From an uncultured Bacteroidales bacterium (lineage in GTDB: Bacteria; Bacteroidota; Bacteroidia; Bacteroidales; VadinHA17), in contig CAWBNA010000015.1 in NCBI GenBank assembly GCA_963789985.1, positions 76,302-140,301 of the forward strand: DNA of 64,000 bases, given 5' to 3'. The notes under the pieces are model-generated. The model worked only from the letters and a program-made list of their open reading frames with translations. It was not told the DNA's origin and searched no databases. This document shows, in pieces, positions 14,635-34,737 of the stretch. The position numbers were made by a program, and so were the translations under genes. The stretch's first letter is position 1, and each line of letters starts with the position of its first letter.

Positions 14635-15315
14635 TCAGAATTTAATAGCGTAATTTAACGACAGAATGTTCATCTTCGTTAAATGAGGAAAATAATCAAG
14701 CTGATAAATATATTCAACTTCGAACGATTGTTTTCTTGCAAAATAATACTCCAGGCCGCAGGTATATCTTTTCTTGCCAATGCCGGGTTCCGGATTTTGA
14801 ATTGCCTTTCTGAACATGGGAGTGAAATATTCTGCCTCGGCATATGGACATACCGGGAATTTGCGTATATTATAAAATGCTTTTAACCTGTACCTGCCAT
14901 GCGCAACGGGGACTTCATCGTTCCTGTCAAGGAAATAGGTCTTATAACGGTCCTCAAATCTGAATCGGGCCGACAAAGACAGTCTGCCGACCGGTACTGA
15001 TCCTTTCACTTCTGCAAACCACACATGACGCCAATGGTAAGTATCATCTTTATCCAGCCGGTATTCAGGTCTGTAACCTCCGCCAATTGCAAAATGCTTA
15101 ATAATTTTGTAGGATAACTGGCCTTCGATGAAATCTTCCCTTATTTTAGAAGCATTGTCAATGGTTCTTATACTTCCCGACAGATCAAATTCAAGTTTCT
15201 TAAAAAATTTATGTTCGGCTGTTACTCCATACCAGATACCGAAATCAGGTGTCTGAGAAAAAACAGCGGAAAATGAACCCAGGAGAAAAATCATCAGTAC
15301 CAGTTTCTTAACCAT
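14635..15315 (-). CDS. Outer-membrane beta-barrel-like protein, DUF2490-like (family name from memory)
   Basis: Signal peptide MVKKLVLMIFLLGSFSAVFSQ starts at the Met at 15315; the track ORF extends to 15360. Alternating beta-strand pattern with aromatic residues, ending in F. Only 7 nt separate it from the upstream DUF4956 stop. Confidence 0.55.
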   Translation of the reverse strand: MVKKLVLMIFLLGSFSAVFSQTPDFGIWYGVTAEHKFFKKLEFDLSGSIRTIDNASKIREDFIEGQLSYKIIKHFAIGGGYRPEYRLDKDDTYHWRHVWFAEVKGSVPVGRLSLSARFRFEDRYKTYFLDRNDEVPVAHGRYRLKAFYNIRKFPVCPYAEAEYFTPMFRKAIQNPEPGIGKKRYTCGLEYYFARKQSFEVEYIYQLDYFPHLTKMNILSLNYAIKF

Positions 15316-15322
15316 CGCTATC

Positions 15323-16012
15323 TTAATTGTCGTTATTACCTTTACCGTTAAAGCCTGCATTGGCCCCTTTAATCATGGGATTATAATAATAGATCAAAAG
15401 GTCACATGTATCTGAGAGGAAATTAAATTTGACAACCTCTACCCTGTTGATCTTGTTTATTCCTGTCCTGTTCTGAATATCCTTAAGCAGTTCATCATGC
15501 TTTCCTGACTTGACCAGGTCGATCTTTTCATATACTATAAGCTTCGACGATTCATGTTTTAAAAGCCATAATTTTTCAATAGCATACGTAATAAGAACAA
15601 CTATGAAATTTGTAAACAGAAGGTCAATCAGGCTTGTCCGTACGTTTGTAAGAGCATTTATCACTGACAGACCTATAATCAGGAAAAGATACGTCATCTC
15701 TTTAATAGGAATAGGATCTGTTCTGTACTTGATTATCCTGAAAGTTGCAAACAAGCCCAGGGCAAAACCTATTTGAAGCTTAACACTCTCAAGCAGATAG
15801 CAAAGCAAAAAAATCAGGATGGAAATCAGGATATAAGTAAACATGTAATCTTTTCTTCTGGTAGTTGTATAGTACAGCCAGCGGGCCAGAATGAGTAAAA
15901 CAACGAGATTCAGGGTAAACCTCACTACAAATTCCAGGAATTCCGGAATATCAATGATATTTAAATCAATAATATTTTCTTTTTCAAAAATCGTCAAAAC
16001 GATTGAGTTCAT
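15323..16012 (-). CDS. DUF4956-family membrane protein (copy 1)
   Basis: 229 aa with 4-5 TM segments. The block GLFATFRIIKYRTDPIPIKEMTYLFLIIGLSVINAL and the soluble C-terminal domain are shared with the paralog at 30755-31342. Confidence 0.7.
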   Translation of the reverse strand: MNSIVLTIFEKENIIDLNIIDIPEFLEFVVRFTLNLVVLLILARWLYYTTTRRKDYMFTYILISILIFLLCYLLESVKLQIGFALGLFATFRIIKYRTDPIPIKEMTYLFLIIGLSVINALTNVRTSLIDLLFTNFIVVLITYAIEKLWLLKHESSKLIVYEKIDLVKSGKHDELLKDIQNRTGINKINRVEVVKFNFLSDTCDLLIYYYNPMIKGANAGFNGKGNNDN

Positions 16013-16221: not shown

Positions 16222-18246
16222 TCAATTCTTTACGACTTTCTTCGTAGTGGAGCCATTTGTTGTCAACGCTTTGATTAAATAAATGCCTCTGGCAAACCGA
16301 CTCATATCCAGCTCAAGAATTTTGCTGTCCGCCGGCATTGTAAAAAGCAAGCTGCCGGATACATCATAAATACTGATTGACTTTATTTCAGTTCCATTTT
16401 GAATTTCGAGTATATCTTTTACGGGGTTTGGAAATAATTGCAGAGTCAGGTCAGAAGGAATATTTTGATCATTAAAGAGTTGAAGATTGGATGCAACCCA
16501 GTTGGAAGGATCATTGTTGTCAAGATCAGGGTCGATCAGTTTCAGGTAATACCCATTGCCGTTTGCGTCCGGCCAGGGAAGGGAGTCTGCATAGTTGACA
16601 TTATCAATTATGTTCCCATATCCATCGACCATTACCAGATTCTGCCCCTTGTCTGACAGATTCCTGGTAAACTGGCCAAAGGGAACAAAGCCATATCTGA
16701 TCTTAAAGACAGAAGTATTGCTTGCAAGAATTATTGAAGCATGCGGGAGAATTGTGGAATTGGCAGGAAACTGGTAGACAAATCCTGTCCCGCTGAAATA
16801 TATTCCGGTCAGGTCCACTGTTTGATCTCCGTTGTTTGTAATCTCTATAAACTCCTGGTCCTCGCTTTTAAGCGGTGTAACTGTCGACGGCGGGTTGTAC
16901 ATGATTTTTGTGATAACAAGAGGAGGAACGGGAACATTGCTGCAGTCAGAGTATGAACCCAGGTTTGCTGTCATCCAGTCTATTCTCGTCGCAAGATAAC
17001 TTTTGATGTCGGCAATGCGCTTTTGAAATTTATCGGCAATATTCCATCGTAAATCATTACGGGTGACTGCTTCACTTATTATTGGAACAGCCTGGTCTAT
17101 AAAGGTTTCCATGCTGGTCAGATTCAATGGCTGCCCTGGCTGGATAAGCTCATTCCATCTTTTTGACAGCTGACATCTGAAGACATCGCTGTTGAAAAGA
17201 TCCAACCAGAACCTGGACCCTTCGTTATCACCATTTGAAAACTGCCAGATATCCGGTTTGCTCCTGTCGTATCCCCATAAAAACAGATCATTTCCGTAAG
17301 TCAGATCATTGTCCCAGACCGGACCTGCTCTCAGTTTCCCATTCCTGTCCTTATGGAAAAATGTGCTGTACTGATATGCATCCGGATTTGAGGCCAGTTC
17401 CTCAATAATCATATAGTCGACAAATGAGGGTATATCAATTACAGAGGGATACCCAGCGGTGACTGAAATATCATTATTGTAAGAGGTTGCCGCAAGGAAC
17501 CGGAACTGACTGCAGATATAATCATTCTGGGCCTGGGTTACGTTCTTAGGTTTTGGCACCACGTGAATGTAATACTGTTCCTGTCCATTCTCCGACTCCA
17601 TTATCCATGCAATCGGATCAGATCCCGGTTTGTCGCATTTAGTAATATAACCGCCGGTTACAGCCGGCATTGAATTATCATTAAAACCGATGCTGATAAC
17701 ATTAACCCTGTTTATATCAGCTTTGACCTTTTCCTGAAGGACATAGAGCCCTTTGTAATTACCATTGATTACCACTTCACAATATGCTGTCCGTGAGGCA
17801 TATTCTCCGATTTGCCTTGAGAGGTTATATGTCAGATAATCACGTATGAATGCCGTGTCAAAGCCCATTGCGTTAATAACCCACGAATAATGACCGGGCA
17901 TACCAAGAAGATTGACATTATTCTTTGTGTAGTCGTCGGACTTATATGTCGAAATACTGTATTGTTTCTTTTCCGGGTATTGGGTGGATTGTCCCCTGAT
18001 TTTTATATTAATTCTGCCGTTATAGTTCAGATATGCCGGATTATTCTGATCTGTCATATAGTTTCGTTCTCCCGAAGGTCTGCAAATGACTTTCATCGAT
18101 CCAAACACTTTCACAGAATCGTTTATTTCTGCACCGTTATCTGTGCTTATTATCATTATCGGAAGGTTGCTGTCAGTTAATGATTGGGCTGAGTCCAGTC
18201 CGCAAATTGAAAGACACAGGAATATTATGGATAAAGTCTTTTTCAT
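16222..18246 (-). CDS. Secreted CotH-family atypical kinase with lamin-tail domain and T9SS C-terminal sorting domain
   Basis: Probable start MKKTLSIIFLCLS at 18246 (track ORF runs to 18351). CotH blocks IKIRGQST, FIRDYLTYNLSRQIG, GLYVLQEKV and GPVWDNDLTYGN. LTD-like EFIEITNNGDQTVDLTGIYFS at about 16492-16923. CTD LFPNPVKDILEI...IYDVSGSLLF...GIYLIKA at 16225-16446. Confidence 0.8.
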   Translation of the reverse strand: MKKTLSIIFLCLSICGLDSAQSLTDSNLPIMIISTDNGAEINDSVKVFGSMKVICRPSGERNYMTDQNNPAYLNYNGRINIKIRGQSTQYPEKKQYSISTYKSDDYTKNNVNLLGMPGHYSWVINAMGFDTAFIRDYLTYNLSRQIGEYASRTAYCEVVINGNYKGLYVLQEKVKADINRVNVISIGFNDNSMPAVTGGYITKCDKPGSDPIAWIMESENGQEQYYIHVVPKPKNVTQAQNDYICSQFRFLAATSYNNDISVTAGYPSVIDIPSFVDYMIIEELASNPDAYQYSTFFHKDRNGKLRAGPVWDNDLTYGNDLFLWGYDRSKPDIWQFSNGDNEGSRFWLDLFNSDVFRCQLSKRWNELIQPGQPLNLTSMETFIDQAVPIISEAVTRNDLRWNIADKFQKRIADIKSYLATRIDWMTANLGSYSDCSNVPVPPLVITKIMYNPPSTVTPLKSEDQEFIEITNNGDQTVDLTGIYFSGTGFVYQFPANSTILPHASIILASNTSVFKIRYGFVPFGQFTRNLSDKGQNLVMVDGYGNIIDNVNYADSLPWPDANGNGYYLKLIDPDLDNNDPSNWVASNLQLFNDQNIPSDLTLQLFPNPVKDILEIQNGTEIKSISIYDVSGSLLFTMPADSKILELDMSRFARGIYLIKALTTNGSTTKKVVKN

Positions 18247-18519
18247 ATAAAGTCCGGGAAGAGTTTCTGTACATAAATTATGATGGCAGGGCCTGAAACG
18301 CCTGAGGCTTTTGTTATACTCCAAATAGGGCTTTCTTCTGTTTCCCGGCATGTCATATTTCCATGTTTTTTGAATGTATTAAAATACGTAATATAGTACA
18401 TCGATATTGTACGCGGGGTATTTTTATATTTTATTGCCTATGTTCCGGGAATAAACATTCCTAAGCAGGCAAATAGCCGGTACTTGATTACAGAAATGGA
18501 AATTTATTACTGGAACGCA

Positions 18520-19203
18520 CTAATCCTTCATACAACGGACCGAATAGCCCGATTGCTTAACACTGAGGCTGCTGTAGAGATCATTGAGAGTGCTGTACAT
18601 GCGCCGGTAGTAGGCATTGAAGTAGTAGCGTTCCGTAGAGCTCCACCAACAACCGTTGGAACGGAAGAAAACAATGTTGGAGCCTGAACTGTATTCGAAT
18701 GTTCCGTTACTGTTACGGAAACCGCCCGGCAGTGCCGTAAAACCAGTTTCGTTGGTTGTCCCCGCATTAGGACTTTCCCAATGGGTTGTTCCCTTTTCCT
18801 TTAATTTGCCGCCGGCAACACTTTCACCTCCCAGATAGATCGTCAGTGTCCTCCATTCAGTATCAGAAGGTACATGCCAGCCTCTGGGGCATAATTTATT
18901 TGTATTGACCGTGAACCAATTATACAAAGCCCCATATGTTTTTTTGGCGGCTGCATCATTTTTATATAAACAATAGGCGGGGGTTGTCAATGCTTCCCAT
19001 GCCTTGTCATCTTTAACCAATGGAATGGCTGTGCCATCATTATATTTCGTAGTTTTCAGATTCTCCGCCATCCAAACCTGCGTGCCAATGGTAACGGTTT
19101 TATAAACATTGCCTTCAATATCCTTAATGGTCTGTGACTGCAGCCCTGCAAATCCCATCCAAAAAAAGCCTATGGCAAATAATATCAGATTTTTATACCG
19201 CAT
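18520..19203 (-). CDS. FISUMP (Fibrobacter succinogenes major paralogous) domain protein
   Basis: Blocks IGTQVWMAENLKTTKYNDGTAI, YGALYNW, GWHVPSDTEW, GFTALPGGFR, WWSST and SVRC. The signal peptide begins at the Met at 19203 (track ORF to 19242). Confidence 0.8.
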   Translation of the reverse strand: MRYKNLILFAIGFFWMGFAGLQSQTIKDIEGNVYKTVTIGTQVWMAENLKTTKYNDGTAIPLVKDDKAWEALTTPAYCLYKNDAAAKKTYGALYNWFTVNTNKLCPRGWHVPSDTEWRTLTIYLGGESVAGGKLKEKGTTHWESPNAGTTNETGFTALPGGFRNSNGTFEYSSGSNIVFFRSNGCWWSSTERYYFNAYYRRMYSTLNDLYSSLSVKQSGYSVRCMKD

Positions 19204-19803
19204 TTTGGTTATCCTTTTGAATATTTGATATTGTAATTCCATAATTCATTGATTTTGACTTAGTCAAACTCCTCGCTTCAGGCAATCTTGAATTTCTTAT
19301 ACATAATGCCCCATAGTCATATTTTTGTTTTTATATATCACAATGCTCTTCAGTTATTTAAAAGGACGAAATTTAATTAAGATATTTCAGAATAAATAAC
19401 CTAAATCGGAAAATCAGTTGTAATGTTAATTTCCCGGTTTCAGAAATTTATTCAGAGCGGATTTTCGGGGATTCAGATTTTAAGGGATTAATTGACCCCG
19501 GATACCTGGTATCCGATGTTTTTGTAAAGAAATTCCAACTCATTGATTACCATCTTTTATCCGGACAAATAGTTATACCTTTTATTTATTAATGAATTCT
19601 TCCGATATATTTACAACAAAAAACCTTTATTTTAAATACCAAAATCTCCCGGCTTTCTTTTATTGCCAGTTTCTGCATTGATATTTGATTTTATTTATCA
19701 AACTTGCATTAAAAATTGATTTAATTTGATCTTTGATATTTTGGCTGATAAACCCGTAGTTCCGGATTTAAAAATATACTATCAATAATATTTCTAAAAC
19801 ATT

Positions 19804-26108: not shown

Positions 26109-26942
26109 ATGATAGAGACATTTACTGACGATTTCAAGATGACTGATATGGGAAAAACAAAAAAGAGTATCATAATAAGTGGGGCCATTATCCTTCTTTT
26201 TTCTTTCGGAAATCTGGCAGGCAAAACCGATCATCCGGGTGGATCAGATTCTGGCCAGACAAGTCCAAATTCTGCTCAGACAAAAACAAAATCCAATCAG
26301 ACTAAAACAAAGTCCGCTCAGGCTAAATCAAAATCCGCTCAGAAGAGTTCAAAAACCACACCGGTTAACAAGAACAAAGATTCCGGAACCGTCAGGATCG
26401 GTACACAAACCTGGGCGATAGCAAACCTGAATGTGAGCACTTTTCGAAATGGCGATTCAATTCCTGAGGCAAAAACCAACAAAGAATGGGAAAAATACGG
26501 TGAATCAGGAAAACCTGCATGGTGTTACTATAATAATAACCCTGTAAACGGTCCAAAATATGGTAAACTGTATAACTGGTTTGCAGTGAACGACCCAAGA
26601 GGATTAGCTCCTGTCGGCTGGACTTTGCCGGGTGACCCTGATTGGGCAAAGCTGACTTATTATTTAGGAGGTCTGGATGCAGCCGGCAATAAAATGAAAA
26701 GCACCAGTGGATGGATTGATGGCAACAATGGCACCAACGAATCCGGCTTTATTGGTCTCCCCGGAGGTTATCGGGTTGAGAACGGAGCATTTCTCAATAT
26801 GGGTAGTATTGGCACATGGTGGAGCTCTACAGAAAGTAAGTCTCTTGAAGCATTTGACCACTACCTTGCACTGAACGGCAGTTTAGGAAGAAGCAGCAGC
26901 TCCAAACGGTCCGGAGAATCAGTTCGTTGCCTGAAGAACTAG
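26109..26942 (+). CDS. FISUMP-domain protein with Lys/Ser/Thr/Gln-rich repeat linker
   Basis: IGTQTWAIANLNVSTFRNGDSIPEA, YGKLYNWFAV, GWTLPGDPDW, GFIGLPGGYR, WWSSTE and SVRC. Alternative start at MGKTKKS (26148). Confidence 0.8.
   Translation: MIETFTDDFKMTDMGKTKKSIIISGAIILLFSFGNLAGKTDHPGGSDSGQTSPNSAQTKTKSNQTKTKSAQAKSKSAQKSSKTTPVNKNKDSGTVRIGTQTWAIANLNVSTFRNGDSIPEAKTNKEWEKYGESGKPAWCYYNNNPVNGPKYGKLYNWFAVNDPRGLAPVGWTLPGDPDWAKLTYYLGGLDAAGNKMKSTSGWIDGNNGTNESGFIGLPGGYRVENGAFLNMGSIGTWWSSTESKSLEAFDHYLALNGSLGRSSSSKRSGESVRCLKN
26277..26360 (+). repeat. In-frame 21-bp (7-aa) tandem repeat, 4 units
   Basis: Units are cagacaaaaacaaaatccaat, cagactaaaacaaagtccgct, caggctaaatcaaaatccgct and cagaagagttcaaaaaccaca. 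They encode QTKTKSN, QTKTKSA, QAKSKSA and QKSSKTT. Confidence 0.85.
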
Positions 26943-27199: not shown

Positions 27200-28369
27200 A
27201 TGAATAAAAAACTTCTGATAATCAGTCTGCTGATAATAGGATCCGGGGTTGTTGCTTTATCGCAGAGTCCTGATAATGAATATTTTAAGCAACCATCGAT
27301 TCTGGATACTGCTAATAGCCAGAAGATTCTTTTCAGAGTTGAGGACATAAATTTTTTCAGGAATCTCGAATATTTCAGTCCGATAGCAGAAGGGCATACA
27401 TATATTGGATTTATTTTACGACCATCCTTTGCTTATCAGCCTACATCCAATACCTGCTTACAGGTCGGGTATCATTTTCTGAAATATTCAGGAATTGCCG
27501 GCTTTTCACAGACCATACCTTTCCTGAGATTTCAATACCGGATAACACCCGGGCTGGATCTGATAATGGGAAGCTTATACAGTACATTAAATCACAGGAT
27601 GATTGAGCCGATGTATGGTTTTGACAGATATATAGAAGACAATGTTGAAAATGGAATAGAGTTTTTATATCATAATGAACATTACAGAGGAGATTTATGG
27701 CTGAACTGGGAGAAGTTTATCGGATTCGAAGATCCGCAGAAAGAACAGTTTTCTGTAGGTTATACATCGGAGATTATTCTCACAAGCCCATCTAAACCTC
27801 TGAAAATCAGTATTCCTGTCCAATTCTTATTCGCACATAAGGGAGGACAGAATACTCTTGACACCACCGCTATGTTTACTCGTTTTAACGGAGCCGCAGG
27901 TTTGTCAATAGAGCATAGTTTTGATCGCCCGTTCATTAAAAGTATCGGTGGTTATGGATATTATCTGGTTTACAAAGATCTTGTAACACCACACGAAATT
28001 GCTTATACTTCCGGAAATGCAACTTATGTAAATATTTATTTAAATACTGCATTCATTAATTTTACAATTGGACACTGGAGAGGTTTTCAATTTTTCAATC
28101 CACGGGGGGAAAGGTATTTTAGTAATATTTCTACAATAGATGATCCTGAGCGATTGGCTGTACCGACACCCGGCCAATATAAAACACCGGTCAGGAATTT
28201 ATTTTTATCAAAAGTATTTATTCATCATGAGGTTAATAATGGGATTAAGCTGGCCGCAGCTTATGAATCCTTTTATGATTATAAAAATTCAAGATATGAT
28301 TTTTACTATGCCCTGTATGTGCTATGCAACATGGATTTTTTTATTCATAAGGTACACTTTACTAACTGA
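27200..28369 (+). CDS. Hypothetical secreted protein, probably outer-membrane beta-barrel
   Basis: 389 aa with a signal peptide. Aromatic-rich alternating pattern. No family recognised. Confidence 0.5.
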   Translation: MNKKLLIISLLIIGSGVVALSQSPDNEYFKQPSILDTANSQKILFRVEDINFFRNLEYFSPIAEGHTYIGFILRPSFAYQPTSNTCLQVGYHFLKYSGIAGFSQTIPFLRFQYRITPGLDLIMGSLYSTLNHRMIEPMYGFDRYIEDNVENGIEFLYHNEHYRGDLWLNWEKFIGFEDPQKEQFSVGYTSEIILTSPSKPLKISIPVQFLFAHKGGQNTLDTTAMFTRFNGAAGLSIEHSFDRPFIKSIGGYGYYLVYKDLVTPHEIAYTSGNATYVNIYLNTAFINFTIGHWRGFQFFNPRGERYFSNISTIDDPERLAVPTPGQYKTPVRNLFLSKVFIHHEVNNGIKLAAAYESFYDYKNSRYDFYYALYVLCNMDFFIHKVHFTN

Positions 28370-29565: not shown

Positions 29566-30579
29566 TTATTGTTCCATCAATAACCTTACTTTTTCACCAT
29601 GGCTCTTTCCGGTCATGGTGTTTACGGCAGATATAACGATCTCGTCTTTATCCGGACGGAATTTTAGCACCTTAAGCAATCCGTCCCCGCATTTTTCACC
29701 GGTCTCTTTTAACCTCTCATTCTGGTAATCTGTAAGAATCTCAAAGAATATTCTTTTATTGCCTGAATTTCCTGGATCTTTTATTTTTACTGCTTTATTC
29801 AATGCGCCTGATTTATGCCCGCATAATACCATAAAAACATTAGGGTTTTTCCTGACAAGTCTTTCATACAGGGTGTAAGCATTGTTTCCCTTAGGTGTTC
29901 CCATTTTATCCACACCGTCCATTCCAAAATTCTTAAGATCATCATTCAGATTTCCTTTTTCATCCATATAGTCGTGCGTAACTATAATGACTTTTTTTGA
30001 AACGTTCCGGGAAATAATACTGTTTGCCCAATTTAATACAATATCGCGGGGAGCTACCTCGAGGCTCATGAGGATGAATTTGAAGCCGTCATAATCAAAA
30101 AGACGATAGTAGTTATCAGTTTTACCCGGTTCAAAGAATCCTCCCTTCCATCCCGGGCCGGATTTTAGAATTCGGGATACAGGGAAATACTTGTTGAATA
30201 ATTCTGTATGCCTTATTCCATCATATCGCGGATTATTTCTGACCGGATCTTTCATATCATTGTTCCCATAAACAATGGAATATGGGATTCCTGCATTTTC
30301 CAGGGTTTTGAAACATGAACTTGCAACTTTCCATTCATATTCCTGATCTTCATCGGTTATGTCGCCCATATGAACAACATATTGAATATTAAAGAGATTC
30401 TTGTTCTCAATAATCCAGTCCATTTGTCGCTGAAATATTTCAGGATGGCTGTAAGTGTAGTATTGAGTATCAGGAAGTATAATAAACGAGAAAAAAATCC
30501 TTTGCCCGGTGCATGATAAACATATGAAGACCTGAAGTAAAATCAGCATTAAAACTGAATTGCGGCATTTTATCATCAT
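29566..30579 (-). CDS. Secreted calcineurin-like metallophosphoesterase
   Basis: 337 aa with a signal peptide. Metallophosphoesterase motifs LPDTQY, HMGDITDE, GNNDM, VTHDY and CGHKSG. Confidence 0.75.
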   Translation of the reverse strand: MMIKCRNSVLMLILLQVFICLSCTGQRIFFSFIILPDTQYYTYSHPEIFQRQMDWIIENKNLFNIQYVVHMGDITDEDQEYEWKVASSCFKTLENAGIPYSIVYGNNDMKDPVRNNPRYDGIRHTELFNKYFPVSRILKSGPGWKGGFFEPGKTDNYYRLFDYDGFKFILMSLEVAPRDIVLNWANSIISRNVSKKVIIVTHDYMDEKGNLNDDLKNFGMDGVDKMGTPKGNNAYTLYERLVRKNPNVFMVLCGHKSGALNKAVKIKDPGNSGNKRIFFEILTDYQNERLKETGEKCGDGLLKVLKFRPDKDEIVISAVNTMTGKSHGEKVRLLMEQ

Positions 30580-30754
30580 GATCCTGGAGAAAGTTAATTT
30601 GAAAATCGTCAGCCAAAAATTAATTAATAAAGTTACAAATAAAGCATGTCTTTAAAATGTAATTACTTGATTTTAGTTTTTAAGTAGTGTAATTTTATGA
30701 AATAAAGACAGGATTAAAGATTGATTTTTATTTATAGACTAAAATCAGAATAAT

Positions 30755-31342
30755 ATGGAAGAGCTGTTTAAAAGTATGACTGTCGCAGGTGTTCTGATGC
30801 GTTTTGCGTTGAACATGATATTTCTCTTTATTCTTATCCGGATTCTTTATTTCAGGTATTGTAAAAAGGAAAAATTTCTTTTTTCCCTTTTCCTCGTTGG
30901 GATAATAGTCTTCTTTATCTGTACAATGCTGAAAAACACCAATATAGGGTTAGGGATGGGGCTCGGGTTGTTTGGCATTTTTCAGATCCTGAGGTTCAGG
31001 ACCAGGAATTTCACACCCAAAGATATGGCTTATATCTTTACATCCATCGGACTCTCGGTCATTAATTCAGTAAACCTGGGAGGATTTCCTTTTATTGGAT
31101 TTTTAATTATCAACATTATAGTGGTCCTTGCGGTATTTGTCCTTGAGGAGTACCTTAAAAAGAACAATTTCTGTAAATATTCAATATGTTATAATAATCT
31201 GGAATTATTAAAACCCGAAAACAGCCATAAGCTTATTAAGGACATATCTGCCAAAACAGGCCTGACTATTATGAAGATTGAGATCCGGAATATCGATTTC
31301 AAAAGAGAGGTTGCCAATCTGGATATTTATTTTAAAGAATGA
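30755..31342 (+). CDS. DUF4956-family membrane protein (copy 2)
   Basis: 195 aa. GLFGIFQILRFRTRNFTPKDMAYIFTSIGLSVINSV and the C-terminal LIKDISAKTG...LDIYF blocks match copy 1 at 15323-16012. Confidence 0.7.
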   Translation: MEELFKSMTVAGVLMRFALNMIFLFILIRILYFRYCKKEKFLFSLFLVGIIVFFICTMLKNTNIGLGMGLGLFGIFQILRFRTRNFTPKDMAYIFTSIGLSVINSVNLGGFPFIGFLIINIIVVLAVFVLEEYLKKNNFCKYSICYNNLELLKPENSHKLIKDISAKTGLTIMKIEIRNIDFKREVANLDIYFKE

Positions 31343-31483
31343 TATACATTGACCCTTTAGCTATTACCTGCATTGGAAGAACGGCAGAAATCATTTTGTC
31401 ATGATTTCCCCCGGCATAAAAACATTTAGTTTAATAACATAGATTGAGTTTTCGATAAACGTTCTTTAAAACAACAGCTTGAA

Positions 31484-32551
31484 ATGAAAAAGATAATCCT
31501 TCCTCTGATTTTCCTGTCAGGTTTTATATTCCAACCTGCATTTGGCCAGATTGACTCAGTAAATGCTAAGTTCGCAGTTAAAGATACCCAGAATGTGAAT
31601 ATCCGGCTTTTCGACAGTAACGATCCCTTTGAGATTTCGCTCAGGTTCGATATTACCACCTATAAAAGGAAAAGATCTGATACTACTTATTTGGATGGTA
31701 TTCTTACTTACCACACGGGCAAAAATGATTCCATAAACAAAAACGTTAAATTAAGACCAAGGGGAACCACCCGCCGTACAATTTGTGATTTTCCTCCTAT
31801 GGACCTGCATTTAAAACTTAAAGATACCGTTGGTGGCGAATTTGTAGGGATAAATAAACTGAAGCTTGTACCCTATTGTAAAATTGGATATGAAGATTAT
31901 ATTTTAAAAGAATATTTAATATATAAGCTGTATAATTTACTCACTGATAATAGTTTTAAAGTCAGGTTATTAAGGATTAATCTCATAAATACGGCAAAGA
32001 ACAGCAAGCCGGTCAGCCAATACGGGTTTGCAATAGAACCTGTAAAACTGCTTGTGAAAAGGACACATACAGCTGAAATAAAACCGGTTTATCTTACACA
32101 AAACAATATCAAACCTGAGATAATGGACCGTTTTGCAATTTTCAGTTACATGATCGGCAATACCGATTGGGCCGTGCCAAATCAGCATAATGTCGTTGTG
32201 CTGACGAAGCCGGGATCAGAACATCCTGAGCTAGGTATAGCGGTACCTTACGATTTCGACTATGCCGGTCTTGTCAATACGGATTATGCTGTCCCGAATG
32301 AGAATTTACCCATCAAATCGGTTCGTGAAAGATATTATATGGGAGTATGCAGAAGTGAAGAAGTCTTTGCGAAAGAGGTTAAAGAATTTGCTGATAAAAA
32401 GGATGAATTTTATAAGCTGATTAACGATTTCCCATACCTTAATCCGAAATCAAAAAAAGACATCATAAGCTATCTGGATGAGTTTTATAAGCTGTTTGAT
32501 AAACACAATTCCATCGTGCACGACTTTCTTAACCATTGCAAGACTTTATAA
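31484..32551 (+). CDS. Secreted compact CotH-like / atypical-kinase-like protein
   Basis: 355 aa with a signal peptide. VKLRPRGTT, YILKEYLIYKLYNLL, YGFAIEPV, MIGNTDWAVPNQHNVVVL and PYDFDYAG align block for block with IKIRGQST, FIRDYLTYNLSRQIG, GLYVLQEKV, EELASNPDAY..FFHKD and VWDNDLTYG of the 16222-18246 CotH. Confidence 0.55.
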   Translation: MKKIILPLIFLSGFIFQPAFGQIDSVNAKFAVKDTQNVNIRLFDSNDPFEISLRFDITTYKRKRSDTTYLDGILTYHTGKNDSINKNVKLRPRGTTRRTICDFPPMDLHLKLKDTVGGEFVGINKLKLVPYCKIGYEDYILKEYLIYKLYNLLTDNSFKVRLLRINLINTAKNSKPVSQYGFAIEPVKLLVKRTHTAEIKPVYLTQNNIKPEIMDRFAIFSYMIGNTDWAVPNQHNVVVLTKPGSEHPELGIAVPYDFDYAGLVNTDYAVPNENLPIKSVRERYYMGVCRSEEVFAKEVKEFADKKDEFYKLINDFPYLNPKSKKDIISYLDEFYKLFDKHNSIVHDFLNHCKTL

Positions 32552-32691
32552 AAAGCGGAAAACAACTTTTTGCTTTTCACTAAACCCGGGCTTAAATTTG
32601 ATTCAGGAATGGTTTAAATAAAAATATGCCTGAGGTATTAATTTTGTTTTATAGTCCTTACATTTAAATCAGAATATCAAAATTCCAGACC

Positions 32692-34737
32692 ATGAAAAAA
32701 CATTTATTTCTATTGTTGCTTATACTCGTCCTAACTGCCATAGCAATTTCATCATGTAAGCAGTCAAAAAAAGAACAGGTGACTGATGCATTAGTATCAC
32801 ACATTGATTCCACAGTTAAGCCAGGAAATGATTTCTTCCTTTTTGCGAACGGTAAATGGTTCAAGCAAAATCCAATTCCTGCCAGCGAACAGAGTAATGG
32901 CATCTGGCAGCTGATCCAGGATACCATCAATGCCCAGGTCCGCCATGTTTGCGAATCTTCGGCCGCAATCAAAGATGCCATAAAGGGAAGTAACAAACAG
33001 AAGATAGGGGATTTCTTTTTTACGGGCATGGATAGTATAACTCTTAACAAAAAAGGTATCTCTGATTTAAAAAGCGATTTTGACAAGATAGATGCAATAA
33101 AAGATATTAATGGCATCATAAAAGCAGCATCATACATTCATACTATAAGTGGTTCTCCTTTGTTCGGAATTGGAGTCGGACAGGATGATAAGATAAGCAG
33201 TAAGAATTCTGTTTTTATTTACCAGGGAGGATTAAGCCTTCCTGACCGTAATTTTTATTTTGATACTGATTCCCGTGCTGTATCAATCCGTCAGAAATTC
33301 ATTGCTCATCTTGAAAATACATTCACTGATGTGGGGTACAACGCTGAAAAAGCCAGGACTATTGCCGTGGGAATCATGAAACTCGAAACAGATATGGCCA
33401 GAACTTCGCGCAAACGGGAAGATACCCGTGATCCATGGAAAAATTACAATAAGCTGACTTTTAAGCAACTTACTGAATCCACTCCGAACATCGACTGGAA
33501 AATTTTTATGGATGGCATCGGTTTGCATAATGTCGACAGTGTTATTGTGGGTCAGCCTGAATTCTTAAAAGCTCTTAATGGTTATCTCAGATCATATCCT
33601 TTAGATGACTGGAAAAATTATCTTAAATATCATCTCACAAGAAATCTTTCAGGCTTCATGGATGACAAAACCTTTCTTGAATTCTTTAACTTTTATTCTG
33701 CAACACTCAGGGGAGTTAAGGAGCCTAAGCCAAGATGGAAACGAGTTGTCCTGCAAACCGATGGTTCACTGGGAGAACTGATAGGGCAGGTTTATGTGGA
33801 TGAATACCTGCCTAAGGGTACAAAAGATAAACTGATCGAGATTGGCAAGGTCATCAAAACAATATTTGCAGAACGCATAAAGGCCCTCGACTGGATGAGC
33901 CCGGCCACCAAAGAAAAAGCACTGAATAAACTCAATACTGTAATTATGAAAGTAGGTTATCCTGACAAATGGAAAGATCTGAGTGCAATGAAAATCGACC
34001 GCACATCGTACCTGAAAGATGCTATGAGTGCCAATAACTGGAGATTCAATTATATGATTTCAAAATATGGAAAACCTGTTGACCGCGCCGAATGGGATAT
34101 GGAGCCACAAACCTACAACGCATATTATAATCCATCCAACAATGAGATTTGCATTCCTGGCTGTAATATTATCGTTCCCGGTTATGAAGGTAAAATGGCT
34201 GACGATGCACTTCTCTACTCTATTGTCGGCGGAACTTTCGGACATGAAATCACACATGGCTTTGACGATCAGGGCTGCAAATACAATGCCAGTGGCAATC
34301 TTCAAAACTGGTGGTCATCTGAAGACAGCATTAAGTTCTATGCAAAGACGAAAATGATTGTTAAACAGTTCAATAAGTATATAGCAGTTGACAGTCTTCA
34401 CATAAACGGTGAACTGACACAGGGCGAAAATATTGCAGATCTTGGTGGTGTAATTATGGCTTATGAAGCTTTTAAGAAAACTGATCAGTTTAAAAACAAT
34501 GTAATTATTGCAGGTTTGAATCCTTCGCAACGCTTCTTCCTTGGCTATGCTCTTGGCTGGATGGTGAATGAACGACCCGAAGCTGTTGCCAGTCAGGTGA
34601 AAAGCGATGAACATTCACCTGCTAAATTCCGCGTAAATGGACCGTTGTCAAATATGCCGGAATTCTATGAAGCATTTGCAATAAAACCAGGTGATTATCT
34701 TTGGGTTCCTGACAGCCTGAGAGTTAAAATCTGGTAG
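32692..34737 (+). CDS. M13-family zinc metallopeptidase (PepO / endothelin-converting-enzyme-like)
   Basis: 681 aa, lipoprotein-like N-terminus. HEITHGFD (HExxH), NAYYNPSNNEI, GENIADLGG and C-terminal W. Confidence 0.85.
   Translation: MKKHLFLLLLILVLTAIAISSCKQSKKEQVTDALVSHIDSTVKPGNDFFLFANGKWFKQNPIPASEQSNGIWQLIQDTINAQVRHVCESSAAIKDAIKGSNKQKIGDFFFTGMDSITLNKKGISDLKSDFDKIDAIKDINGIIKAASYIHTISGSPLFGIGVGQDDKISSKNSVFIYQGGLSLPDRNFYFDTDSRAVSIRQKFIAHLENTFTDVGYNAEKARTIAVGIMKLETDMARTSRKREDTRDPWKNYNKLTFKQLTESTPNIDWKIFMDGIGLHNVDSVIVGQPEFLKALNGYLRSYPLDDWKNYLKYHLTRNLSGFMDDKTFLEFFNFYSATLRGVKEPKPRWKRVVLQTDGSLGELIGQVYVDEYLPKGTKDKLIEIGKVIKTIFAERIKALDWMSPATKEKALNKLNTVIMKVGYPDKWKDLSAMKIDRTSYLKDAMSANNWRFNYMISKYGKPVDRAEWDMEPQTYNAYYNPSNNEICIPGCNIIVPGYEGKMADDALLYSIVGGTFGHEITHGFDDQGCKYNASGNLQNWWSSEDSIKFYAKTKMIVKQFNKYIAVDSLHINGELTQGENIADLGGVIMAYEAFKKTDQFKNNVIIAGLNPSQRFFLGYALGWMVNERPEAVASQVKSDEHSPAKFRVNGPLSNMPEFYEAFAIKPGDYLWVPDSLRVKIW

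What the first reader, a model, noticed from the sequence alone, without database searches (positions are those of the whole stretch)
29566..32551. Locus 2: second DUF4956 gene paired with a compact, divergent CotH-like secreted protein and a divergent metallophosphoesterase
A second DUF4956 paralog lies at 30755-31342. It shares GLF..F.I.R.R....PK(E/D)M.Y.F..IGLSVIN and the C-terminal domain with copy 1. It is followed 141 nt later by a 355-aa secreted protein. That protein's blocks align in order with the CotH kinase of locus 1, including a GNTDW..HN segment and YDFDYAG, which corresponds to VWDNDLTYG. A secreted calcineurin-like phosphoesterase is transcribed divergently. The DUF4956 + CotH-like pairing therefore occurs twice in 15 kb with very different kinase architectures. 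This argues for a functional couple rather than chance adjacency. The phosphoesterase could be a phosphatase counterpart, but that is speculative.
Basis: partly seen in the sequence, partly recalled or inferred. Interest (0 to 1): 0.6.

Follow-up and report, generated by a model that had tools for sequence, protein, structure and literature searches.

The report
Compact CotH-like kinase paired with DUF4956
An unannotated 355-residue exported protein is a stripped-down relative of the CotH spore-coat kinase, and across Bacteroidota it repeatedly sits beside a DUF4956 membrane protein and often a phosphoesterase, which marks an uncharacterised cell-envelope phosphorylation module.

Summary
The divergent metallophosphoesterase is at 29566-30579(-), the DUF4956 paralog at 30755-31342(+), and a 355-aa signal-peptide protein ("X355") follows 141 nt later at 31484-32551(+).

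X355 has no Pfam or NCBIfam hit and is not significantly similar in sequence to the window's CotH. Its AlphaFold model (pLDDT 85) nevertheless matches Bacillus cereus CotH kinase best in the PDB (Foldseek E 3e-10). One family member passes Pfam's CotH cut-off. The kinase-type residues K127, E143, N226, D228, N236 and D259 are unchanged or nearly so in 349 homologs.

The adjacency is not chance. A DUF4956 gene lies within 300 bp of the X355 homolog in 30 of 79 species loci, in both gene orders. Of 52 informative DUF4956-centred loci, 27 carry X355 and 6 a canonical CotH. Five loci read VTC-DUF4956-X355-phosphoesterase, with X355 where reported Gram-positive cotH/polyP-polymerase/DUF4956 gene sets have CotH. 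Two unrelated metallophosphoesterase families recur beside the pair.

X355 represents a large, unannotated CotH-like family (about 3,700 clusters at 50% identity). The biochemical mechanism is inferred only. It may involve donor supply through DUF4956, with the phosphoesterase acting as an eraser.

The parts
29566..30579 (-). Divergent metallophosphoesterase, 337 aa, with an N-terminal signal or lipoprotein-like peptide. Its active-site motifs are atypical: LPD37-T-Q39, G72-D73, G-N107-D108, H202 and G-H255-K.
   Evidence: Pfam PF00149 at 34.1 bits against a cut-off of 21.5. Motifs are invariant in six orthologs. No sequence relative in the PDB. Orthologs lie next to the DUF4956/X355 pair in L089, L090, L131, L137, L139, L142, L145 and L146.
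30580..30754 (.). AT-rich 175-bp divergent intergenic region between the phosphoesterase and DUF4956. It is the presumed site of both promoters.
   Evidence: Sequence read. It holds only relaxed TAnnTTTn matches and no exact Bacteroidetes -7 motif TAnnTTTG. The promoter assignment is inferred.
30755..31342 (+). DUF4956 paralog (copy 2), 195 aa. It has five predicted membrane helices, a conserved basic loop (RFRTRNFxPKDM) and a C-terminal beta-alpha-beta-beta domain of about 55 aa.
   Evidence: PF16316 E 3.3e-40. 35% identical to copy 1. AlphaFold secondary structure at pLDDT 65.6. Only weak, non-significant ACT-like fold matches. Conservation.
31343..31483 (.). 141-nt spacer between DUF4956 and X355. 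Co-transcription is likely.
   Evidence: No terminator-like site and no TAnnTTTG motif. Two exact TAnnTTTG motifs lie upstream of the next gene, at 32593 and 32639. Co-transcription is inferred.
31484..32551 (+). X355: an exported, compact CotH-like atypical kinase of 355 aa. It belongs to a large family that has no Pfam or NCBIfam model.
   Evidence: No Pfam or NCBIfam hit. 2,259 homologs and 3,695 cluster representatives at 50% identity. AlphaFold model at pLDDT 85.3 and pTM 0.83. Foldseek top hits are 5jd9 and 5jda, CotH, at E 3e-10.
31484..31549 (+). Predicted Sec signal peptide of X355 (residues 1-22, MKKIILPLIFLSGFIFQPAFGQ).
   Evidence: Read directly from the translation. The N-terminal pattern is conserved in the family consensus. 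Cys101 and Cys132 are invariant and Cys289 and Cys352 are each kept in about 323 of 349 sequences, which fits disulfides in an exported protein. Export is inferred.
31862..31912 (+). Putative nucleotide-binding Lys127, on a strand of the N-lobe, through Glu143, on the helix at 137-151 (alpha-C-like).
   Evidence: K127 is kept in 348 of 349 sequences and E143 in 349 of 349. Secondary structure. This helix is the only stretch that hhalign aligns to CotH. The catalytic roles are inferred.
32159..32191 (+). Putative catalytic loop N226-T-D228-W-A-V-P-N-Q-H235-N236.
   Evidence: N226, D228 and N236 are kept in 349 of 349 sequences and H235 in 339 of 349. The loop follows the helix at 211-223 and precedes the strand at 237-241, as in protein-kinase folds. 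It aligns to N207-P-D209 of the window CotH fragment, but not significantly.
32252..32260 (+). D257-F258-D259, the putative metal-binding (DFG-like) motif. It corresponds to W-D-N-D of the window's CotH.
   Evidence: D259 is kept in 349 of 349 sequences, F258 in 348 and D257 in 344. It follows the strand at 251-255. In the window CotH fragment, D209 to D232 is 23 residues, the same spacing as B. subtilis CotH D228 to D251 (PMC7821199). In X355 the spacing is 29-31 residues.
16222..18351 (-). Locus 1 comparator: canonical CotH kinase domain plus lamin-tail domain plus T9SS sorting domain, 709 aa.
   Evidence: PF08757 E 7.9e-55, PF00932 and PF18962.
15323..16012 (-). Locus 1 comparator: DUF4956 copy 1, 229 aa, 209 nt downstream of the CotH gene.
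   Evidence: PF16316 E 2.3e-46. It is closer (35-57% identity) than copy 2 (31-33%) to the DUF4956 genes of VTC-DUF4956-X355 clusters.

Best explanation
Locus 2 encodes a conserved envelope module with three parts. The first is an inner-membrane DUF4956 protein with five helices, very short outward loops, a conserved basic cytoplasmic loop and a small cytoplasmic ACT-like domain. The second, probably co-transcribed with it, is an exported, disulfide-containing, catalytically intact CotH-like kinase reduced to the bare kinase core (X355). The third is a divergently transcribed exported metallophosphoesterase.

Shown here: X355 has a CotH-type kinase fold with invariant catalytic-type residues. 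DUF4956 is its preferred genomic partner. X355 and canonical CotH are interchangeable partners of the same DUF4956 clade. Phosphoesterases and, in some lineages, a VTC polyphosphate-polymerase domain join the cluster.

Inferred: X355 phosphorylates an extracytoplasmic target, either a protein or a surface polymer. DUF4956 exposes almost nothing to the periplasm, so it more likely acts as a conduit or gate than as a receptor. It would pass a cytoplasm-made phosphoryl donor to the kinase. That donor would be polyphosphate where VTC is present, and a nucleotide or PPK-made polyphosphate elsewhere. The phosphoesterase would remove or trim the product.

The confidence of 0.5 is for the explanation as a whole. 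I put about 0.85 on the part shown here and about 0.25 on the conduit step.
For: Fold. The AlphaFold model has pLDDT 85.3. Its top PDB matches are CotH 5jd9 and 5jda at E about 3e-10, followed by other kinases.

Sequence bridge. Family member P0233 passes the Pfam CotH cut-off, and 9 of 140 members hit CotH and no other family repeatedly.

Catalytic competence. K127, E143, N226, D228, N236 and D259 are kept in 348-349 of 349 homologs.

Export. X355 has a signal peptide and two conserved cysteine pairs.

Coupling. DUF4956 lies within 300 bp in 30 of 79 species loci, with typical gaps of -28 to +40 nt and in both orders. Of 52 informative DUF4956-centred loci, 33 have X355 or CotH next door. In the window's lineage (window, L005, L089) the outer flanks differ while the pair is kept.

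Partner swapping. Copy 2 is 63-69% identical to DUF4956 genes paired with canonical CotH, but only about 49% (median) to those in X355-then-DUF4956 pairs.

Phosphate theme. Five loci read VTC-DUF4956-X355-phosphoesterase. A PPP-like metallophosphoesterase occurs in 12 loci and alkaline phosphatase in 5. The window-type phosphoesterase occurs in 8 further loci.

Operon. The spacer has neither a terminator nor a Bacteroidetes -7 motif.

Literature. A cotH + polyP polymerase + DUF4956 gene set is described next to Gram-positive pel operons (PMC7112168). The DUF4956 protein there is described as having four TM segments plus an intracellular ACT domain (bioRxiv 10.1101/2024.04.20.589940).
Against: - No sequence comparison between X355 and CotH is significant on its own.
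- The TM-score to CotH is only 0.47-0.54.
- Residue equivalences come from motif order, not from a printed structural superposition.
- The pairing is not universal. Forty X355 loci with adequate flanks lack DUF4956, including many with the order transketolase-X355-HAD hydrolase, and 19 DUF4956 loci lack any detected CotH-like gene.
- No VTC gene is in the 64-kb window, and only 5 of 30 paired loci have one. Polyphosphate therefore cannot be the general explanation unless it is made elsewhere.
- The DUF4956 model is of low confidence (pLDDT 65.6) and has no significant structural match, including none to the yeast VTC channel.
- The window's phosphoesterase lacks three canonical histidines and may not be a standard hydrolase.
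- Locus counts are not phylogenetically independent, and some metagenome loci are near-duplicates.
Confidence: 0.5

Rival explanations
1. DUF4956, the phosphoesterase or both are substrates or membrane anchors of the kinase rather than a donor conduit. In B. subtilis the CotH substrates CotB and CotG are encoded next to cotH. By analogy, X355 would dock on DUF4956 or phosphorylate it, and DUF4956 would pass a signal to its cytoplasmic ACT-like domain.
For: The tight adjacency and both gene orders fit any physical partnership. The B. subtilis precedent of neighbouring substrates is from my recollection of Nguyen et al. 2016, a paper not held in the library, and from the CotB/CotG phosphorylation described in PMC7821199. 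The weak ACT-like matches of the C-terminal domain suggest ligand sensing.
Against: By the positive-inside rule applied to the helices, the outward-facing parts of DUF4956 are about 9 N-terminal residues and two loops of about 6 residues. These are poorly conserved, which leaves little to dock on or phosphorylate. The best-conserved polar motif (RFRTRNFxPKD) is predicted to be cytoplasmic, out of reach of an exported kinase. The VTC linkage in five loci is not explained.
Confidence: 0.2
2. X355 has the kinase fold but is not a protein kinase. It would be a small-molecule, glycan or lipid kinase, or another nucleotide- or polyphosphate-dependent transferase, that modifies an envelope polymer. 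The neighbouring phosphatases would act in phosphate turnover or scavenging.
For: Kinase-like folds support several chemistries. Neighbours include alkaline phosphatase, sulfatase/phosphodiesterase-superfamily enzymes and a propeller protein of the 'SdiA-regulated' family. The canonical cotH/VTC/DUF4956 set sits next to an exopolysaccharide (pel) operon in Gram-positives (PMC7112168). X355 has lost every accessory domain that the window's CotH carries.
Against: The full Lys/Glu/Asp/Asn/Asp set typical of phosphotransfer is invariant. The nearest solved structure is a bona fide Ser kinase. None of this distinguishes between acceptor types.
Confidence: 0.2
3. The adjacency in this window carries no functional meaning. 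X355 is an independent periplasmic protein whose common context is transketolase-X355-HAD hydrolase, and DUF4956 and the phosphoesterase are there by rearrangement.
For: X355's nearest relatives outside its own lineage lie between transketolase and a HAD hydrolase with no DUF4956. These are P0005 (72%), L009 and L010 (66-67%), and P0036, P0059, P0088 and P0120 (59-62%). The closest relative, L005, lacks the phosphoesterase.
Against: In several loci DUF4956 sits inside that same context, in the order transketolase-X355-DUF4956-HAD (L015, L021, L024), so the DUF4956-free version looks like a loss. Thirty of 79 and 33 of 52 are far above my rough estimate of about 0.2% for chance adjacency to a gene present in one to three copies per genome. 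The window lineage re-formed the pair from a DUF4956 whose orthologs partner canonical CotH. That is hard to explain without selection for adjacency.
Confidence: 0.05

Closest known systems
CotH spore-coat protein kinase (Pfam PF08757; B. subtilis CotH; B. cereus CotH structures 5JD9 and 5JDA)
   Same: It is the best structural match in the PDB. X355 has the same motif order: helix, then N-x-D, then a strand, then (W/Y)-D-x-D. Both proteins work outside the cytoplasm. One X355-family member passes the Pfam cut-off. X355 also has the same genomic partner, DUF4956.
   Different: X355 itself gives no Pfam hit even at E 10. It is a bare 355-aa core without the lamin-tail and T9SS domains of the window's CotH. 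It lacks an insertion of about 90 residues between the lobes that the window's CotH has. The spacing from the catalytic Asp to the metal-binding Asp is 29-31 residues rather than 23. It has four conserved cysteines. The organisms involved are MAGs of Bacteroidota, a phylum not known to form spores (my knowledge, not tested).
The cotH + polyphosphate polymerase (VTC domain) + DUF4956 (+DUF4832) accessory gene set next to Gram-positive pel operons (Whitfield et al. 2020, PMC7112168; S. intermedius preprint 10.1101/2024.04.20.589940)
   Same: It combines an exported CotH-type kinase with DUF4956. Five Bacteroidota loci found here have VTC-DUF4956-X355, the same trio with X355 in CotH's place.
   Different: In the window and in most loci there is no VTC, no DUF4832 and no pel operon. 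A metallophosphoesterase is the recurrent third gene instead. That set has not been characterised functionally either.
Yeast VTC complex (polyphosphate polymerase coupled to a membrane channel) and the vacuolar metallophosphatase-type polyphosphatase Ppn2
   Same: It is a conceptual parallel. A cytoplasmic VTC catalytic domain sits next to a multi-helix membrane protein, and a metallophosphoesterase sits on the far side of the membrane. The parallel rests on my knowledge of the yeast system, plus PMC10657179 for coupled synthesis and transfer.
   Different: No sequence or fold similarity between DUF4956 and the VTC membrane domain was detected. There is no VTC gene in the window. This comparison concerns how the module might work and makes no claim of membership.
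HipA/CtkA-type and Fam20-type atypical kinases
   Same: CtkA (3akk) is the third-best structural match, at E 2.4e-4. One family member hits HipA_C at E 0.12. Fam20 kinases are also secretory (my knowledge).
   Different: These matches are far weaker than those to CotH. HipA and CtkA are cytoplasmic or injected proteins, whereas X355 has a signal peptide and conserved cysteines. They share no genomic context with X355.

Membership tests
CotH kinase family (Pfam PF08757) | The sequence matches the Pfam CotH model above its gathering score of 23.8 bits. | tested here: not met
   X355 gives no hit even at E<=10. Within its family, 9 of 140 diverse members reach E<=0.01 and one (P0233) scores 36.1 bits, covering profile positions 1-82 only.
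CotH kinase family (Pfam PF08757) | An atypical protein-kinase-like fold as in B. cereus CotH (5JD9, 5JDA). | tested here: met
CotH kinase family (Pfam PF08757) | A catalytic Asp and a metal-binding Asp (B. subtilis D228 and D251) plus a Lys/Glu pair. | tested here: inconclusive
   Candidate residues K127, E143, D228, N236 and D257/D259 are invariant or nearly so in 349 homologs and lie in the expected secondary-structure positions. Their equivalence to the CotH residues rests on motif order and on an hhalign alignment that is not significant.
CotH kinase family (Pfam PF08757) | ATP-dependent protein phosphorylation activity. | not testable with these tools
   This needs biochemistry.
DUF4956 (Pfam PF16316) | The sequence matches the Pfam model above its gathering score of 30.6 bits over the full length. 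| tested here: met
   138 bits, E 3.3e-40, profile positions 1-169 of 169.
DUF4956 (Pfam PF16316) | A multi-pass membrane region plus a small C-terminal alpha/beta (ACT-like) domain. | tested here: inconclusive
   Five helices and a C-terminal beta-alpha-beta-beta unit are predicted, but at pLDDT 65.6. The ACT-domain matches have E>0.1.
Calcineurin-like metallophosphoesterases (Pfam PF00149) | The sequence matches the Pfam model above its gathering score of 21.5 bits. | tested here: met
   34.1 bits, E 4.8e-8.
Calcineurin-like metallophosphoesterases (Pfam PF00149) | The canonical metal-ligand motifs DxH / GD / GNH(D/E) / H / GHxH. | tested here: not met
   The orthologs conserve D37-x-Q39, G72-D73, G-N107-D108, H202 and G-H255-K. 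Three canonical histidines are therefore replaced, and activity is uncertain.
cotH / VTC / DUF4956 gene set (PMC7112168) | A VTC (polyphosphate polymerase) domain gene lies in the cluster. | tested here: not met
   No VTC homolog was found in the 64-kb window by phmmer with a VTC query, E<=0.01. VTC is present in 5 related loci: L056, L062, L069, L080 and L086.

The most novel reading that the evidence does not exclude
DUF4956 is a dedicated inner-membrane conduit. It would hand a cytoplasm-made phosphoryl donor to exported CotH-type kinases. The donor would be polyphosphate spun out by VTC where that gene is present, and otherwise a nucleotide or PPK-made polyphosphate gated by the ACT-like domain. 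This would explain how bacterial kinases that work outside the cytoplasm are supplied with a donor. The exported metallophosphoesterase would act as eraser or trimmer. X355 would be the minimal periplasmic version of this writer-conduit-eraser system.
Probability: 0.15. Interest if true: 0.85.

Novelty: new variant of a known kind. Interest (0 to 1): 0.58.

Why it matters
**An unannotated kinase family.** X355 represents about 3,700 clusters at 50% identity, mostly from Bacteroidota. Every named member seen here is called "hypothetical protein" and none has a Pfam or NCBIfam model. Recognising these proteins as CotH-like kinases with intact catalytic residues gives them a testable activity.

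**A conserved core pairing.** The work shows that a CotH-type kinase plus DUF4956 is the conserved core of a module previously noted only as accessory genes in Gram-positive pel loci. The module exists in a minimal form in didermic bacteria, with a phosphoesterase as a recurrent third part.

**An open question made testable.** How extracytoplasmic bacterial kinases obtain a phosphoryl donor is not settled. This module contains only three genes, which makes it a tractable system for addressing that question.

Tried and rejected
**Sequence comparisons of X355 with CotH.**
- BLASTP of X355 against the window's CotH was not significant, and the top segment was misaligned.
- hhalign of the X355 family against a CotH-family alignment aligned only the alpha-C-like helix, at E 0.02-0.06.
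- Forced global alignment and a C-lobe-only alignment were uninformative or no better than a reversed control.
- A home-made CotH HMM against 270 family members gave nothing below E 0.05.
- Sequence searches of the PDB with X355 profiles found nothing.
- Even the window's bona fide CotH barely finds 5jd9 by sequence, at E 0.013. Sequence silence is therefore not evidence against homology.

**DUF4956.** The structure prediction was of low confidence, and its fold search gave no hit at or below 1e-3. The idea that it resembles the yeast VTC channel could not be supported.

**Window phosphoesterase.** It has no sequence relative in the PDB, alone or as a profile. It is not detectably related to the PPP-like phosphoesterase of the other loci.

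**Tools and papers not available.**
- The sigma-70 promoter scan is not meaningful for Bacteroidota and found fewer sites than shuffled controls.
- Nguyen et al. 2016 is not held in the library. One paper search failed on term length.

**Rejected reading.** I rejected chance adjacency on the counts.


Full report
**Observation.**
- 29566-30579(-) is a 337-aa protein that matches Pfam Metallophos at 34.1 bits against a cut-off of 21.5. It starts with a hydrophobic signal or lipoprotein-like peptide.
- 30755-31342(+) is a full-length DUF4956 protein, E 3.3e-40. It is 35% identical to the DUF4956 of locus 1, E 7e-31.
- 31484-32551(+) lies 141 nt further on. It encodes 355 residues ("X355") beginning with a typical Sec signal peptide.
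- Locus 1 is also as described: a CotH + lamin-tail + T9SS protein at 16222-18351(-), DUF4956 copy 1 at 15323-16012(-) and a DUF2490 protein at 14635-15360(-).

**Is X355 CotH-like?**

By sequence alone the answer would be no.
- There is no Pfam or NCBIfam hit, even at E 10.
- BLASTP against the window's CotH is not significant.
- Profile searches of PDB sequences find nothing.
- hhalign against an alignment of the window's CotH family aligns only one helix, at E 0.02-0.06.
- CotH is very divergent, however. The window's own bona fide CotH profile finds the B. cereus CotH chain only at E 0.013.

Three other lines of evidence say yes.

1. Predicted structure. An AlphaFold model built on 39 homologs has pLDDT 85.3 and pTM 0.83. 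Its two best PDB matches are B. cereus CotH, 5jd9 and 5jda, at E about 3e-10, probability 1.00 and TM 0.47-0.54. Next come the H. pylori kinase CtkA at 2.4e-4, PI3K and eukaryotic protein kinases.
2. A sequence bridge. X355 belongs to a large family, with 2,259 hits and 3,695 cluster representatives at 50% identity, nearly all 330-390 aa. Among 140 diverse members, CotH is the only Pfam family hit more than once (9 members at E<=0.01). One member, P0233, scores 36.1 bits, above the cut-off of 23.8.
3. Conserved residues in kinase-like positions. K127, on an N-lobe strand, is kept in 348 of 349 sequences. E143, on the following helix, is kept in 349. N226-x-D228...H235-N236, after the helix at 211-223, has N, D and N in 349 of 349. 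D257-F-D259, after the strand at 251-255, has counts of 344, 348 and 349.

They are reproduced by a C-lobe-only hhalign alignment, but at a score no better than a reversed control. I count them as consistent, not as proven.

In the window's CotH fragment the two aspartates D209 and D232 are 23 residues apart. That is the same spacing as the experimentally defined D228 and D251 of B. subtilis CotH (PMC7821199). In X355 the spacing is 29-31.

Cys101 and Cys132 are invariant. Cys289 and Cys352 are each kept in about 323 of 349 sequences. Together with the signal peptide, this argues for an exported, disulfide-bonded protein.

**Is the DUF4956 adjacency meaningful?**

I first looked up six homologs. 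Five of them (59-72% identity) lie between transketolase and a HAD hydrolase with no DUF4956. Only the 91% relative keeps the pair. That looked like a refutation, but the wider samples reverse it.

- X355-centred sample. A scan of one genome per species returned 79 loci. In 30 of them a DUF4956 gene lies within 300 bp of the X355 homolog, usually -28 to +40 nt away on the same strand. X355 comes first in 23 loci and DUF4956 first in 7. DUF4956 is by far the commonest neighbour family. Three loci read transketolase-X355-DUF4956-HAD, so the DUF4956-free version is most simply a loss.
- DUF4956-centred sample. A metagenome scan found 66 loci with a copy-2-like gene. Of these, 27 have X355 next door, 6 have a canonical CotH within 1 kb, 19 have neither despite at least 900 bp upstream, and 14 are too short to tell. 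Some of these loci are near-duplicates, so the counts overstate independence.
- Close relatives of copy 2. A 79% relative has the same triad as the window, phosphoesterase(-) | DUF4956 | X355, with different outer flanks. Relatives at 69% sit divergently next to a 676-aa CotH+LTD+T9SS protein.
- Identity classes. Copy 2 is 79-85% identical to the DUF4956 genes of its own lineage and 63-69% to those paired with canonical CotH. It is a median 49% to those in X355-then-DUF4956 pairs and 31-33% to those in VTC clusters. Copy 1 is 35-57% identical to the VTC-cluster genes.

One DUF4956 clade therefore alternates between canonical CotH and X355 as its neighbour. The window's pair also looks like a secondary re-joining of the two families. 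I consider this strong evidence for a functional couple.

**Other recurrent neighbours.**
- Five loci (L056, L062, L069, L080, L086) read VTC domain - DUF4956 - X355 - metallophosphoesterase. This puts X355 in the company that published Gram-positive gene sets give to CotH: cotH, a polyP polymerase and DUF4956, contiguous with pel operons (PMC7112168).
- A PPP-like metallophosphoesterase with DVHG...GDxxDRG...GNHE motifs and an N-terminal hydrophobic segment flanks the pair in 12 of 79 loci. It is not detectably related to the window's enzyme.
- The window-type enzyme recurs next to the pair in L089/L090 and in six metagenome loci.
- Alkaline phosphatase (5 loci), sulfatase-superfamily enzymes and a propeller protein of the "SdiA-regulated" family also recur.

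Two unrelated phosphoesterase families at the same position suggest that the function, rather than the particular gene, is what is selected. The window's enzyme replaces three canonical histidines, with motifs DxQ, G(N/D)ND and GH-K. It has no sequence relative in the PDB, so its chemistry is open.

**DUF4956 itself.** The model is weak (pLDDT 65.6). It predicts five helices and a C-terminal beta-alpha-beta-beta unit at about pLDDT 80. Fold search gives no match at or below 1e-3, only weak ACT-domain matches. That agrees with a preprint's description of the streptococcal homolog as four TM segments plus an intracellular ACT domain.

Applying the positive-inside rule to those helices is my inference. 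It places the RYCKKEK and RFRTRNFxPKD loops and the C-terminal domain in the cytoplasm. Only about 9 N-terminal residues and two loops of about 6 residues would face outward.

**Expression.** The 141-nt spacer has no terminator-like hairpin and no Bacteroidetes -7 motif TAnnTTTG. Two exact copies of that motif precede the next gene, an M13 peptidase. Co-transcription of DUF4956 and X355 is therefore likely, though inferred.

**Mechanism.**

The following points are shown by the analyses above:
- X355 is an exported CotH-fold protein with an intact phosphotransfer residue set.
- It is genomically coupled to DUF4956.
- It is interchangeable with canonical CotH as DUF4956's partner.
- It is frequently joined by phosphoesterases and sometimes by a polyphosphate polymerase.

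The rest is inferred. X355 would phosphorylate an extracytoplasmic target. DUF4956 exposes little to the periplasm and carries a conserved basic cytoplasmic loop, so it would act as a conduit or gate for a phosphoryl donor rather than as a receptor. The phosphoesterase would reverse or trim the product. I put about 0.85 on the structural and associative statement and about 0.25 on the conduit step.

The rival readings are these. DUF4956 or the phosphoesterase could be substrate or anchor, by analogy with cotB and cotG next to cotH. X355 could have a non-protein acceptor. The adjacency could be meaningless, which the counts disfavour.

The main weaknesses are these. The window has no VTC gene. 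The pairing is not obligatory. There is no significant direct sequence link between X355 and CotH. There is no structural evidence about what DUF4956 does.

**Comparison with what is known, and novelty.** CotH kinases, and the co-occurrence of cotH, a VTC polyP polymerase and DUF4956, are in the literature. Full-text search found DUF4956 in only five papers, and the four listed give it no function.

What is new here:
- A very large, unannotated family is recognised as a minimal CotH-like kinase.
- It is shown to share DUF4956 as a partner with canonical CotH.
- Phosphoesterases are a recurrent third component.

I rate this a new variant of a known kind, of moderate interest. The window comes from ENA assembly ERZ25039512, contig_19341, 505 kb. 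The related genome loci are almost all Bacteroidales or other Bacteroidota MAGs.

Noticed in passing
window 14635-16012 (-): DUF4956 copy 1 and the DUF2490 gene downstream of it overlap by 38 nt (15323-15360). The same DUF4956 + DUF2490 pair is listed as BT3498-BT3499 in Bacteroides thetaiotaomicron, in a table of genes that change expression under iron limitation (PMC10434189).
   Followed up: partly
L036, L037, L038, L040, L042, L043, L045, L047, L055, L117, L118: X355 homologs are often duplicated. Some are tandem pairs followed by DUF4956 (L042, L043, L045, L117, L118). In others two copies converge on a central DUF4956 (L036-L038). I did not check whether the extra copies keep all the catalytic residues copy by copy.
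   Followed up: partly
L089:12371-12967 and L089:13544-16144: In the 79% relative, a second DUF4956 gene of 198 aa (43% identical to copy 2) lies 2.6 kb downstream of X355. It is followed by an 866-aa protein with TIR and FGE-sulfatase domains.
   Followed up: no
L022:2591-4051 and homologs in L025, L027, L029, L031: A protein of about 490-520 aa with no Pfam hit lies directly downstream of the X355-DUF4956 pair in five loci. It is a possible further member of the module.
   Followed up: no
L046-L047, L051, L058, L064: In five loci an alkaline phosphatase (PF00245) and a conserved protein of about 210 aa with no Pfam hit follow X355 directly, without DUF4956.
   Followed up: no
L088, L092, L095, L097, L099, L102, L128 and others: A protein of about 305 aa with a weak 'SdiA-regulated' (PF06977) match, a family I recall as beta-propeller, follows DUF4956 in the canonical-CotH loci. 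It also flanks several X355 loci: L023, L028, L033 and L036-L038. The window has no homolog.
   Followed up: partly
window 27200-28369 (+): A 389-aa protein matches NCBIfam LpxZ_fam at E 2.5e-50 but at 171 bits, below the cut-off of 460. The precomputed annotation calls it PF28590 Lipid_A_deac. It may be a lipid A-modifying enzyme, lying two genes upstream of the module.
   Followed up: no
window 18520-19242 (-) and 26109-26942 (+): Two paralogous Fib_succ_major (PF09603) proteins lie between and beside the two DUF4956 loci.
   Followed up: no
window 32593 and 32639 (+): Two exact Bacteroidetes -7 promoter motifs (TAnnTTTG) lie in the 140-nt gap before the M13 peptidase gene (32692-34737). This suggests the peptidase is transcribed separately from the module.
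   Followed up: partly
L055:3412-4035: A Pycsar effector-like membrane protein (PycTM, PF18967) lies about 2.6 kb from a tandem X355 pair. It is probably incidental.
   Followed up: no
L057 and L075: Two of the 79 X355 loci come from Gemmatimonadetes MAGs rather than Bacteroidota, and neither has DUF4956 next door. This could reflect horizontal transfer or binning error.
   Followed up: no
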